Assembly: GCA_964587725.1 (NCBI GenBank)
Contig: CAZPLO010000003.1
Span: 85,670-116,263, forward strand
Direction of reading: 5' to 3'
DNA: 30,594 nt
From: an uncultured archaeon
Lineage (GTDB): Archaea > Altiarchaeota > Altiarchaeia > IMC4 > SCGC-AAA252-I15
Part shown: one piece after another, positions 495 through 1,692 of the stretch
How the letters are laid out: each line of letters starts with the position of its first letter
Numbering within the stretch: the stretch's first letter is position 1
Notes under the pieces: generated by a model
What the model saw: the letters and a program-made list of their open reading frames with translations, nothing else
The model's database searches: none
What the model was told of the DNA's origin: nothing
Position numbers and translations under genes: made by a program

Positions 495-1577
495 ATGATG
501 CATTTGTCCACCAACGTGCTCGGCTCCTTTGTCCTACGGGACGGGAAGGTGGTGAAGCAGCGGCTGTTCACCAGCCCTGCAGGGGATATTGCGTCGAAGC
601 TGATGGCGGCGTCCGAGTCCTACTGCAGCGAGGAAAAAGAGCTTCTCCGGGAGCTCGCGGACACCGGCAACGAGCGCGTGTACGTCAACCACCCCCGCAG
701 GTTCAGGGGAGCGGGCGTCGACATCGAGTTGGTGGAGGAGGAGTCCCGCGTCCCCGTGCAGAAGGTCGCGGCGGAGCTTGGAATACCTGCCGGGAAGGCT
801 GAGTCTCTGATGCGGGAGGTGAACCGCCTCATAACCAGGGAGCGGATGAAAGATGTTGGCAGAGACCAGATACTGGTTCAGGCGGTCAACAGCCTCGACG
901 ACATCGAGGAGGCCGTGAACCGCCTGGTGGAGCGCCTCCGCGAATGGTATTCGCTTCACTTCCCCGAACTCGACGACATCGTGTCTTCGCATGAAATGTA
1001 CGCCCGCCTGGTTGTGGACATCGGCTCCAGGGACTCATACGTCTCCGCGGACTTGAACGTGGACCCGGAGTTCACCAAACGCATCGTCGACGCGTCGAAG
1101 GACTCTCTGGGCGTGGACTTCACCGAAGACGATTTACGCGCGGTGAAGGCGCTGGCCGATCCGGTGACCACACTGCACGCAAAACGCGGGGAAATAGAGG
1201 CTTATGTGTCGAAGCTGATGGAGGAAATAGCACCCAACCTGAACGCGTTGGCGGGGCCTCTGTTGGGGGCGCGGCTGATAGCGTTGGCGGGCAGCCTGCA
1301 ACGCCTCTCCATGATGCCCGCTGGGACCATCCAGATACTCGGCGCCGAAGACGCGTTCTTCCGTTTCATGAAGTCCGGGAAGAAGCCGCCTAAACACGGC
1401 GTCATCTTCCAGTACCCGGACATCCGCGGCTCCAAAAAGAACATAAGGGGGAAGCTGGCCCGCACCTTCGCAGCGAAACTCGCGATAGCGGCGAGGGTCG
1501 ACGCATTCGAAGGCGACTTCATAGCCGACAAACTCAAAGAAGACTTCGAGAAACGGGTTAAGGAGCTGACAGGATAA
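495..1577 (+). CDS. nop5: Box C/D sRNP subunit Nop5 (aNop56/58)
   Basis: NOSIC motif RLREWYSLHFPEL; Nop domain IAPNLNALAGPLLGARLIALAG, PAGTIQILGAE, PPKHGVIFQ, RGKLARTFAAKLAIAARVDAF. No KKE tail. Confidence 0.96.
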   Translation: MMHLSTNVLGSFVLRDGKVVKQRLFTSPAGDIASKLMAASESYCSEEKELLRELADTGNERVYVNHPRRFRGAGVDIELVEEESRVPVQKVAAELGIPAGKAESLMREVNRLITRERMKDVGRDQILVQAVNSLDDIEEAVNRLVERLREWYSLHFPELDDIVSSHEMYARLVVDIGSRDSYVSADLNVDPEFTKRIVDASKDSLGVDFTEDDLRAVKALADPVTTLHAKRGEIEAYVSKLMEEIAPNLNALAGPLLGARLIALAGSLQRLSMMPAGTIQILGAEDAFFRFMKSGKKPPKHGVIFQYPDIRGSKKNIRGKLARTFAAKLAIAARVDAFEGDFIADKLKEDFEKRVKELTG

Positions 1578-1601
1578 GTCCGTACAATAGGAAGTTGGTT
1601 G

Positions 1602-1660
1602 TCCATCAGCAGCTACCCTTGTCGTCACAGTGTCGGTCTACTTCGCTGTCATCATCTGGA
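1602..1660 (-). ncRNA. Archaeal box C/D methylation-guide sRNA
   Basis: Minus strand reads TCCA-G-ATGATGA(C)-CAGCGAAGTAGA-CCGA(D')-CACT-GTGACGA(C')-CAAGGGTAGCTG-CTGA(D)-TGGA: 4-bp terminal stem, two 12-nt guides, TATAAAA about 25 nt upstream. Confidence 0.92.
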
Positions 1661-1685
1661 ACGTTATTCATTAGCTGCTTCTGGC

Positions 1686-1692
1686 TTTTATA
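1686..1692. promoter_or_regulatory. TATA element probably serving both the sRNA (-) and the DUF2582/GT4 unit (+)
   Basis: TTTTATA on + and TATAAAA on -; about 25 nt from the sRNA 5' end and 45 nt from ATG 1738, which has a GAGGTGA SD. Confidence 0.55.

What the first reader, a model, noticed from the sequence alone, without database searches (positions are those of the whole stretch)
1602..1660. Unannotated double-guide box C/D sRNA beside nop5, apparently aimed at the peptidyl-transferase centre
Seen: complete C/D'/C'/D architecture, a terminal stem, two 12-nt guides and its own TATA, lying antisense 24 nt past the stop of the gene for its own core protein Nop5. Known: the residue paired to the 5th nt upstream of a D/D' box is 2'-O-methylated. 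Inferred from my recollection of archaeal 23S rRNA: the D guide pairs with AGCUACCC in AAAAGCUACCC...GGGAUAAC (about U2438, E. coli numbering). The D' guide pairs with CUACUUCGCUG, matching the CUAC(C/U)UCG(A/C)UGUC segment and selecting the C2498 equivalent, a site bacteria methylate with the stand-alone enzyme RlmM. One RNA could therefore bridge two sides of the PTC loop.
Basis: partly seen in the sequence, partly recalled or inferred. Interest (0 to 1): 0.85.

Follow-up and report, generated by a model that had tools for sequence, protein, structure and literature searches.

The report
Box C/D guide RNA beside nop5
This is a real archaeal methylation-guide RNA gene, shared across its phylum, and one of its two guides points at a ribosome active-site nucleotide that bacteria methylate with a dedicated enzyme.

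Summary
A 59-nt box C/D sRNA gene lies on the minus strand at 1660..1602. It has boxes C, D', C' and D, two 12-nt spacers, a 4-bp terminal stem and a TATA box at the right distance. It sits 24 nt past the stop of a Nop5 gene.

It belongs to a family found in 49 of 61 genomes of its class, which is also the whole phylum sample. The terminal stem covaries, and no Rfam family reaches threshold.

The D' guide pairs 11 of 11 Watson-Crick with the organism's own 23S rRNA. The N+5 rule selects the E. coli C2498 equivalent (chance about 0.002). The same pairing holds in all 6 genomes where guide and rRNA could both be read.

The D guide is nearly invariant across the phylum, but its target is not settled.
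- **Helix 74, U2438:** only 8 pairs (chance about 0.24), but present in every rRNA read.
- **GTPase-associated centre:** 10 pairs with one G-U (chance about 0.05), but broken at the methylation site in four lineages that keep the guide.

Most relatives carry a different D' guide that seems to select G2251, so the C2498 guide is a lineage-specific retargeting.

Expression and methylation could not be tested. This is a new member of a known kind, of moderate interest.

The parts
1602..1660 (-). whole box C/D sRNA gene (59 nt)
   Evidence: Read directly. Covariance-model hit at window 1601-1660, E 1.7e-19.
1656..1660 (-). 5' half of the terminal stem (four outer bases pair) plus one unpaired base before box C
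   Evidence: Across 24 homologues, 95 of 96 cells are paired and 3 of 4 pairs show changes on both sides.
1649..1655 (-). box C
   Evidence: Exact consensus. Six of its seven positions are invariant in 24 aligned homologues.
1637..1648 (-). D' guide (12 nt)
   Evidence: 11 contiguous Watson-Crick pairs with own 23S 2469-2479. N+5 is own C2472, which is E. coli C2498. Chance 0.002.
1633..1636 (-). box D' (variant, C at second position)
   Evidence: The terminal GA is nearly invariant in the alignment.
1622..1628 (-). box C' (variant at fifth position)
   Evidence: Both GA dinucleotides are invariant in 24 homologues. The fifth position varies freely.
1610..1621 (-). D guide (12 nt)
   Evidence: Positions 2-9 from box D are identical in every homologue I read (33 full-length, 18 further); positions 10-11 depart in three (G020, G039, G051). 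Pairs with own 23S 2409-2416 (8 WC, N+5 = U2438) or 1082-1091 (10 contiguous, one G-U).
1606..1609 (-). box D
   Evidence: Exact consensus, invariant in 24 homologues.
1602..1605 (-). 3' half of the terminal stem
   Evidence: Covaries with 1660-1657.
1685..1692 (-). TATA box of the sRNA promoter
   Evidence: An A/T-rich block at -31 to -25 has A+T fraction 0.8-0.9 across 24 homologues, against 0.3-0.5 beside it.
495..1577 (+). nop5 (core protein of the box C/D sRNP), convergent neighbour
   Evidence: Pfam PF01798 Nop domain, E 3.1e-66. The same adjacency occurs in 7 of 35 homologous loci.

Best explanation
Window 1660..1602 (minus strand) encodes a genuine archaeal box C/D sRNA.

**Inferred mechanism**
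- It is transcribed from its own TATA promoter.
- Its terminal C/D kink-turn and internal C'/D' kink-loop bind L7Ae, then a Nop5 dimer and two fibrillarins. All three proteins are encoded in this genome.
- Each 12-nt spacer pairs with rRNA, and fibrillarin methylates the 2'-OH of the residue opposite the fifth guide base upstream of box D' or D.

**Targets**
- D' guide: C2498 (E. coli numbering) in the central loop of 23S domain V. I hold this at about 0.85.
- D guide: most likely U2438 in the 3' strand of helix 74, 60 nt upstream of C2498. I hold this at about 0.5.
- If both are right, one particle can hold both strands that flank helix 89 while the peptidyl-transferase centre folds.

**Evolution**
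- The RNA belongs to a phylum-wide family with a fixed D guide.
- In most members the D' guide appears to select G2251 in the P loop.
- In this lineage it was replaced by the C2498 guide.

**Shown versus inferred**
- Shown: the architecture, conservation, stem covariation, the pairings and the presence of the protein genes.
- Inferred: transcription, particle assembly and the methylations themselves.
For: **Architecture**
- All four boxes, two 12-nt spacers and the terminal stem are at the stated coordinates.
- It is one of only 2 strict candidates in the whole 1.56-Mb genome.
- Seven of the 11 sub-threshold Rfam hits in 1400-1900 are C/D-box families lying on this exact span, minus strand.

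**Conservation**
- A covariance model finds the family in 49 of 61 genomes of the class.
- In 24 aligned homologues, box C is invariant at six of its seven positions, box D is invariant, and both GA pairs of box C' are invariant.
- In the terminal stem, 95 of 96 cells are paired and 3 of 4 pairs change on both sides. None of 500 shuffles reaches the observed covariation score, and slid controls fall to 4-65% paired.

**Promoter**
- An A/T-rich block at -31 to -25 is kept across the 24 homologues.

**D' guide**
- It forms 11 contiguous Watson-Crick pairs with own 23S 2469-2479, and N+5 is own C2472.
- A MAFFT alignment to an annotated E. coli 23S puts this at C2498.
- A random 12-mer reaches 11 pairs covering N+5 in 16S plus 23S with probability 0.002 (200,000 trials).
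- Of 274 box-flanked half-mers in the genome, only 3 reach a perfect 10-pair core. One is this guide and one is the D' guide of the other sRNA.
- The same guide pairs 10-12 bases at the same site in all 6 genomes where both could be read: G000, G001, G010, G013, G020, G021.

**D guide and helix 74**
- Positions 2-9 of the guide are identical in all 51 homologues read (33, 18 more); positions 10-11 are the same two bases in all but three (G020, G039, G051).
- Its 8-base complement is present in 25 of 26 rows where I read that region (22 of 23, 3 of 3). The exception, L060, is a second, divergent 23S in a genome with 6% contamination.
- Pairing lengthens to 9 in G021 and G023.

**Core proteins**
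- Nop5 is in the window.
- Fibrillarin is at C1:111960-112592, E 2.3e-78.
- There are two L7Ae-family genes.
Against: - No RNA data exist. The 4 runs that hold this DNA are all DNA, so transcription, RNA ends and methylation are untested.
- In this genome the D guide pairs better with 23S 1082-1091 in the GTPase-associated centre: 10 contiguous pairs with one G-U, chance 0.048.
- A third weaker site exists in 16S at 743, with 8 core pairs and a mismatch next to N+5.
- Guide positions 10-11 are kept in 48 of the 51 homologues read, yet helix 74 pairing does not use them in this genome.
- Boxes D' and C' both depart from consensus by one base.
- The single-strand fold is no more stable than shuffles (z +0.40). 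This is expected for a guide RNA, but it gives no support.
- The G2251 assignment for the other D' guide type rests on 9 of 10 core pairs with a constant internal mismatch. About one random half-mer in five reaches that score. The site is the top hit in 8 of 11 genomes, third in one, and absent from the top three in two.
Confidence: 0.72

Rival explanations
1. The RNA is the same, but the D guide directs methylation in the GTPase-associated centre (helix 43). The target would be the U at own 23S 1086, which is E. coli position 1075 by direct count in the strain I aligned. This would be instead of U2438, or in addition to it.
For: - In this genome the site gives 10 contiguous pairs with one G-U, starting at the base next to box D.
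- The chance of such a run is 0.048, against 0.24 for the helix 74 match.
- Four 23S rows (G006, a second G015 copy L061, G017, G032) have 10 perfect pairs there.
- Guide position 10, kept in 50 of the 51 homologues read, pairs at this site.
Against: - In G021 (f2), G023 (f4), G029 (f5) and G053 (f9), the rRNA base at the methylation position is C, opposite guide A. All four keep the D guide core unchanged.
- The guide base next to box D, which pairs at this site, varies freely among homologues: G, T, A or C.
- This site is in domain II, while every D' target proposed for the family lies in domain V.
Confidence: 0.3
2. The D guide has no methylation target. It serves only as an anchor or folding chaperone for domain V, or it acts on an RNA I did not examine. 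Only the D' half would be catalytic.
For: - No rRNA site gives the 9-10 Watson-Crick pairs usual for archaeal guides.
- A genome-wide scan found no site of 10 core pairs other than the antisense of the gene itself, and no hit in a recognised RNA gene.
- Chaperone roles for archaeal double guides are discussed in PMC7994747 (passages).
Against: - The near-invariance of ten guide bases (positions 2-9 in all 51 homologues read, 10-11 in 48) argues for base-specific recognition of an equally invariant partner.
- The helix 74 complement is exactly such a partner.
- The N+5 base is paired at both candidate rRNA sites.
Confidence: 0.15
3. It is not an RNA gene. The boxes would be a chance pattern in the nop5 3' region or in the divergent promoter region.
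For: - No expression data exist.
- A mechanical 61-aa ORF (1599-1784, +) and a 164-aa antisense ORF (1134-1628, -) overlap the span.
Against: - The family is found in 49 of 61 genomes, with flanks that diverge freely while the boxes stay fixed.
- The terminal stem shows compensatory changes.
- The locus occurs in other genomic contexts in 28 of 35 loci.
- It has an 11-base match to the functional core of 23S.
Confidence: 0.03

Closest known systems
Archaeal box C/D sRNAs (for example the Rfam sR1, sR2, sR5, sR12, sR14 and sR17 families)
   Same: About 60 nt long, with the C/D'/C'/D box order, 12-nt spacers, a short terminal stem, rRNA-complementary guides and the N+5 rule. These are the best sub-threshold Rfam hits on this exact span.
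   Different: No family reaches its gathering score. The best is sR2 at 17.4 bits against 42. The guides and targets differ. The host is a mesophile-type MAG with only 2 clean C/D sRNAs detected, against dozens in hyperthermophiles (PMC4644070 passages).
RlmM of Escherichia coli (stand-alone 2'-O-methyltransferase for 23S C2498)
   Same: Same predicted substrate nucleotide and the same chemical modification (PMC3488215 abstract and passages).
   Different: RlmM is a protein that recognises rRNA structure without a guide RNA. Here the site is chosen by base pairing. In Table 1 of review PMC11542601, Cm2498 is listed for E. coli only, with no entry for H. marismortui, yeast, human or Arabidopsis.
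Guides for the P-loop G2251 in other archaea and eukaryotes
   Same: The commoner D' guide of this same family seems to select G2251. Dennis et al. predict guide-directed modification of the E. coli G2251 equivalent in three archaeal species (PMC4644070 passage).
   Different: The window's own copy has lost that guide, and I found no other G2251 guide in this genome. I did not test for sequence relatedness to those published guides, because their sequences are in supplements I could not open.
The second C/D sRNA of the same genome (contig C10, near 17,952, minus strand)
   Same: Same architecture. Its D' guide makes 10 perfect core pairs with own 23S and selects own U2526, which is U2552 of the A loop by the constant 26-nt offset between the two numberings seen (my reading). 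Its D guide pairs six bases downstream.
   Different: It has a longer terminal stem and exact consensus internal boxes. It is unrelated in sequence and lies at a different locus.

Membership tests
archaeal box C/D sRNA | Box C (7-nt consensus) near the 5' end and box D (4-nt consensus) near the 3' end | tested here: met
   Exact consensus at 1655-1649 and 1609-1606. Box D is invariant and box C is invariant at six of seven positions in 24 homologues.
archaeal box C/D sRNA | Terminal stem that brings C and D together to form the kink-turn | tested here: met
   4 bp (1660-1657 with 1605-1602). 95 of 96 cells are paired, and 3 of 4 pairs have compensatory changes.
archaeal box C/D sRNA | Internal D' and C' boxes forming a kink-loop | tested here: met
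   Present at 1636-1633 and 1628-1622, each one base off consensus. The GA dinucleotides needed for sheared pairs are invariant or nearly so in 24 homologues.
archaeal box C/D sRNA | Spacers of about 12 nt between C and D' and between C' and D | tested here: met
   12 and 12 nt. The 12-nt constraint is stated in PMC7229835 (passages).
archaeal box C/D sRNA | Guide complementary to rRNA or tRNA with the target base paired at N+5 | tested here: met
   D' guide: 11 Watson-Crick pairs with own 23S, chance 0.002.
archaeal box C/D sRNA | Second guide also has a convincing target (double guide) | tested here: inconclusive
   D guide: 8 WC pairs at helix 74 (chance 0.24), or 10 pairs with one G-U at helix 43 (chance 0.048). 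Phylogeny favours helix 74.
archaeal box C/D sRNA | Host encodes L7Ae, Nop5 and fibrillarin | tested here: met
archaeal box C/D sRNA | Expressed as a stable RNA of about 60 nt that is bound by the core proteins | not testable with these tools
   No RNA run holds this DNA; there are 4 DNA runs from one study.
archaeal box C/D sRNA | 2'-O-methylation present at the predicted residues | not testable with these tools
   There is no modification data for this uncultured organism.
any existing Rfam C/D family | Score at or above the family's gathering threshold | tested here: not met
   0 matches in the whole window at gathering score. The best is sR2 at 17.4 bits against 42.

The most novel reading that the evidence does not exclude
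This small archaeal phylum may run a minimal RNA-guided system of two or three sRNAs. Its predicted targets are G2251, C2498 and U2552, exactly the three ribose methylations that E. coli places in 23S with the stand-alone enzymes RlmB, RlmM and RlmE. That would be a convergent minimal set for the peptidyl-transferase centre.

Within the phylum, one sublineage retargeted the D' guide of a fixed-D-guide sRNA from G2251 to C2498. The new duplex includes the phylum's own C at position 2503, a base described as universally conserved A elsewhere. The methylation might therefore compensate for a remodelled tunnel entrance.
Probability: 0.15. Interest if true: 0.6.

Novelty: new member of a known kind. 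Interest (0 to 1): 0.38.

Why it matters
It gives an uncultured archaeal phylum a concrete, testable rRNA modification system: two clean guide RNAs, both aimed at the catalytic core of the large subunit.

If confirmed, Cm2498 would be an RNA-guided counterpart of a modification so far tabulated only for bacteria. This bears on why the same few riboses around the peptidyl-transferase centre are methylated again and again by unrelated machineries.

The family also shows a guide swap on a constant scaffold, with both forms surviving side by side in one genome (G007). That is a clean natural example of how guide RNAs change targets.

None of this overturns current understanding. C/D sRNAs aimed at the PTC, and double guides that bridge rRNA strands, are established ideas.

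Tried and rejected
**Expression.** The look-up of sequencing runs listed 4 holders, all DNA, from one study of microbial mat metagenomes, and no RNA holder. I did not use read laying, because contigs of DNA runs cannot show an RNA.

**Earlier findings.** A second call failed on a missing argument, and I did not try again.

**A perfect target for the commoner D' guide.** A 9-base pattern search in 5 relatives gave only scattered sites with no shared context, at or below the rate of the reversed-pattern control. I dropped the idea of a perfectly complementary target and turned to sites with one mismatch.

**Other targets for the D guide.** A genome-wide scan found 38 sites with 9 or more core pairs besides the gene's own antisense. 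One of them lies on the strand opposite the 23S gene; none lies on the sense strand of a recognised RNA gene. Aragorn found only 14 tRNAs in this draft genome, so tRNA targets are not excluded.

**A G2251 guide in this genome.** There was no convincing candidate. The genome is 92% complete.

**Position 2503 across the phylum by pattern.** The pattern was too loose and mostly hit coding DNA. It did show that the phylum sample is the same 61 genomes as the class. I rely instead.

**Taxonomy.** The only named relative is a MAG labelled Candidatus Altiarchaeales archaeon (66% Nop5 identity). The taxonomy look-up did not know that name. I treat the phylum name as tentative.

**Literature.**
- 'C2498' with 'box c d' and 'archaea': 0 papers.
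- 'altiarchae' with 'fibrillarin': 1 paper, listing only, unrelated.
- 'altiarchaeota' with 'snorna': 3 papers, listings only, unrelated.
- 'U2438' with '23S': 6 papers, of which I read passages of only one (PMC3351187); it concerns base methylations in helix 74, not a ribose methylation of U2438.
- PMC5047217 (the 10-nt limit of guide pairing) is not held.
- The per-site target tables of PMC4644070 and PMC6009581 are in supplements, which are closed. I therefore cannot say whether a C2498 or U2438 guide was already predicted in a hyperthermophile.

**Duplex free energies.** Not obtained (see below).

Full report
**What is there.**
On the minus strand, window 1660..1602 reads as a textbook archaeal box C/D sRNA.
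- A 5-nt leader, whose four outer bases pair with the last four bases of the RNA.
- Box C at 1655-1649, exact consensus.
- A 12-nt spacer at 1648-1637.
- Box D' at 1636-1633, one base off consensus.
- A 4-nt loop.
- Box C' at 1628-1622, one base off consensus.
- A second 12-nt spacer at 1621-1610.
- Box D at 1609-1606, exact consensus.

An 8-bp TATA-like block sits at 1692-1685, about 30 to 23 nt upstream of the predicted 5' end. The ORF at 495-1577 on the plus strand carries the Nop domain (PF01798, E 3.1e-66), and its stop lies 24 nt from the 3' end of the sRNA. The next gene downstream (1738-1944, +) is a small winged-helix protein (DUF2582), then a family-4 glycosyltransferase. Fibrillarin is not here. 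It lies on another contig (C1:111960-112592, E 2.3e-78). Two L7Ae-family genes are also present.

**Is it more than chance?**
- A strict pattern for the full architecture finds only 2 candidates in the 1.56-Mb draft genome on both strands. One is this locus and the other is on contig C10.
- Rfam gives nothing at gathering score in the whole window.
- With permissive thresholds on 1400-1900, 8 of the 11 weak hits lie on this span and strand, and 7 of those 8 are C/D-box families. The best is sR2, at 17.4 bits against a gathering score of 42.
- The single-strand fold shows the terminal stem but is no more stable than shuffles (z +0.40). That fits a guide RNA whose spacers must stay open.

**Relatives.**
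- A BLAST search of 41 relatives gave many hits.
- I aligned 24 compact homologues and built a covariance model from them. It finds the family in 49 of the 61 genomes held for the class. By these are also all the genomes held for the phylum.
- In the alignment, box C is invariant at six of seven positions, and box D and both GA dinucleotides of box C' are invariant. The GA of box D' is nearly so, and the fifth position of C' varies freely.
- The terminal stem is paired in 95 of 96 cells, and 3 of its 4 pairs show changes on both sides. None of 500 column shuffles reaches the observed covariation score. Sliding the partner by one to three columns drops pairing to 4-65%.
- Upstream, an A/T-rich block at -31 to -25 is kept (A+T 0.8-0.9), flanked by ordinary composition.
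- The neighbourhood is less stable. nop5 lies next to the sRNA in 7 of 35 loci examined with 1.5-kb flanks (G000, G003, G004, G006, G013, G018, G023). It is not there in G001, of the same genus.

**The D' guide.**
- The organism's 23S rRNA is at C1:98696-101556 on the minus strand, and the 16S is at C1:102058-103545.
- The D' spacer forms 11 contiguous Watson-Crick pairs with own 23S 2469-2479. The base opposite the fifth guide position is own C2472.
- I aligned the own 23S to an annotated E. coli 23S of 2904 nt.
- In 200,000 random 12-mers of genome composition, 0.2% reach 11 pairs covering N+5 in 16S plus 23S.
- Among 274 box-flanked half-mers in the genome, 3 have a perfect 10-pair core. 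They are this guide, the D' guide of the C10 sRNA, and one coding-region hit.
- The 11-base target word occurs three times in the genome: in 23S, on the strand opposite the sRNA gene itself, and once on contig C10.
- Ten homologues carry the same guide type: G000, G001, G004, G007 (one of its two copies), G010, G011, G013, G018, G020 and G021.
- In the 6 of these genomes whose 23S could be read, it pairs 10-12 bases at the same site.

**The D guide.**
- Its positions 2 to 9, counted from box D, are identical in every homologue I read, including families f8 and f9 of other orders. Positions 10 and 11 are the same two bases in all but three (G020, G039, G051). Positions 1 and 12 vary freely.
- There are two candidate targets in own 23S.
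  - 2409-2416: 8 Watson-Crick pairs at guide positions 2-9. N+5 is own U2412, which is E. coli U2438. This lies in the 3' strand of helix 74, where U2438 pairs with A2071 in E. coli (PMC3351187 passages).
  - 1082-1091: 10 contiguous pairs with one G-U at guide positions 1-10. N+5 is own U1086, which is E. coli position 1075 by direct count in the strain I used. This lies in the helix 43 region of the GTPase-associated centre.
- By chance alone, the first is expected 24% of the time and the second 4.8%. In this one genome, helix 43 is therefore the better match.
- Comparison points the other way. The helix 74 complement is present in 25 of 26 rows read. The odd one, L060, is a second, divergent 23S in a genome with 6% contamination. 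Pairing grows to 9 in G021 and G023.
- At the helix 43 site, the base at the methylation position is C, opposite guide A, in G021, G023, G029 and G053. All four keep the guide core unchanged.
- A mismatch at the target base should block methylation. This last step is established knowledge of the system, not something I tested.
- A third, weaker site lies in 16S at 743.
- My odds for the D guide are helix 74 about 0.5, helix 43 about 0.3, and neither about 0.15-0.2.

**The family's other D' guides.**
- Most homologues carry a different D' spacer.
- For the commonest type, the best 23S site is the P loop in 8 of 11 genomes with a readable 23S. It ranks third in one (G008) and is not among the top three in two (G015, G034).
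- The pairing is 9 of 10 core positions with a constant G-opposite-A at guide position 7. N+5 is the base aligned with E. coli G2251.
- In family f8, the guide has U at that position, which would turn the mismatch into a wobble. I read this by eye; no script computed it.
- In G002, both the P-loop stem and the guide differ from the common type, in a way that keeps 10 contiguous pairs. There, however, the P-loop site ranks third by my score, behind a site in the 5' strand of helix 74.
- A score of 9 is common by chance, at roughly one half-mer in five. The G2251 assignment therefore rests on consistency across genomes and is an inference.
- G007 carries both D' types in tandem copies about 100 nt apart.
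- I found no G2251 guide in the window's genome.

**The wider picture in this genome.**
- The only other clean C/D sRNA lies on contig C10 near 17,952, minus strand. Its D' guide has a perfect 10-pair core with own 23S and selects own U2526. The constant 26-nt offset between the two numberings makes this U2552 of the A loop; that equivalence is my reading, not a computed mapping. Its D guide pairs six bases further on.
- The predicted guide-directed sites in the phylum are therefore G2251, C2498, U2552 and probably U2438.
- Review PMC11542601 names G2251, C2498 and U2552 as the three ribose methylations of E. coli 23S, made by RlmB, RlmM and RlmE. Its Table 1 lists Cm2498 for E. coli only (passages).
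- The resemblance is striking, but it is partly an effect of where conserved, unprotected rRNA lies. PTC hotspots for archaeal guides are well known (PMC4644070 and PMC7994747 passages).

**Comparison with what is known.**
- It works like, and meets the sequence definitions of, an archaeal box C/D sRNA. It is not a member of any Rfam family.
- My searches found no paper that links C2498 to a box C/D guide in archaea (0 papers), and none on C/D RNAs of this phylum (listings only).
- The per-site tables of the large archaeal surveys are in supplements that I could not open. A C2498 guide in a hyperthermophile may already be on record.

**Verdict.**
- This is a new member of a known kind, in a little-studied phylum. 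It comes with a tidy example of guide retargeting and a possible RNA-guided counterpart of bacterial Cm2498.
- Expression and methylation remain untested.

Noticed in passing
G000:C1, own 23S position 2477 (L001); also L033-L061 and L127-L129: Every 23S of this phylum that I could read has C at the position aligned with E. coli A2503 (27 of 28 rows, 3 of 3; alignment). PMC5499644 calls that base universally conserved (passages). The one row with A (L060, G005) is a second, divergent 23S in a genome with 6% contamination. Family f8 also differs at 2504. A2062 is kept. The D' guide of the window pairs with this C.
   Followed up: partly
L010 (G004) 1544-1707; L005 (G013) near 1410-1435; L018 (G017) near 1813-1831; L016 (G033) near 1751-1764; L029 (G039) near 1662-1678: In several relatives, the 3' end of the sRNA (end of the D guide, box D and the 3' stem half) is repeated 75-300 nt downstream. 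It occurs twice in tandem in G004. Each copy is preceded by an A/T-rich hairpin whose stem differs between genomes but stays paired. This is not present in the window. It could be half-guides, duplicated attachment sites or terminator modules.
   Followed up: no
G000:C10, about 17,952 to 17,894, minus strand (outside the window): A second clean box C/D sRNA with a 5-bp G+C-rich terminal stem. Its D' guide has 10 perfect core pairs with own 23S and selects own U2526 (U2552 by the 26-nt numbering offset), and its D guide pairs six bases downstream.
   Followed up: partly
window 495-1577 and G000:C1:111960-112592: nop5 is not followed by fibrillarin, its usual operon partner in archaea (the operon habit is recalled, not from a call). 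Fibrillarin lies on another contig.
   Followed up: no
L012/L051 (G037 contig C51) and L007/L037 (G021 contig C267): In G037, the sRNA lies about 1.5 kb downstream of the 23S gene on the same contig. In G021, it lies about 13 kb from the 23S gene. The family therefore sits near the rRNA operon in some lineages and next to nop5 in others.
   Followed up: no
L007 (G021) 1501-1559 and about 1670-1728: G021 has two tandem copies with the C2498-type D' guide. The second has a degenerate box C region and scores lower with the model (E 1.1e-11 against 2.0e-19).
   Followed up: no
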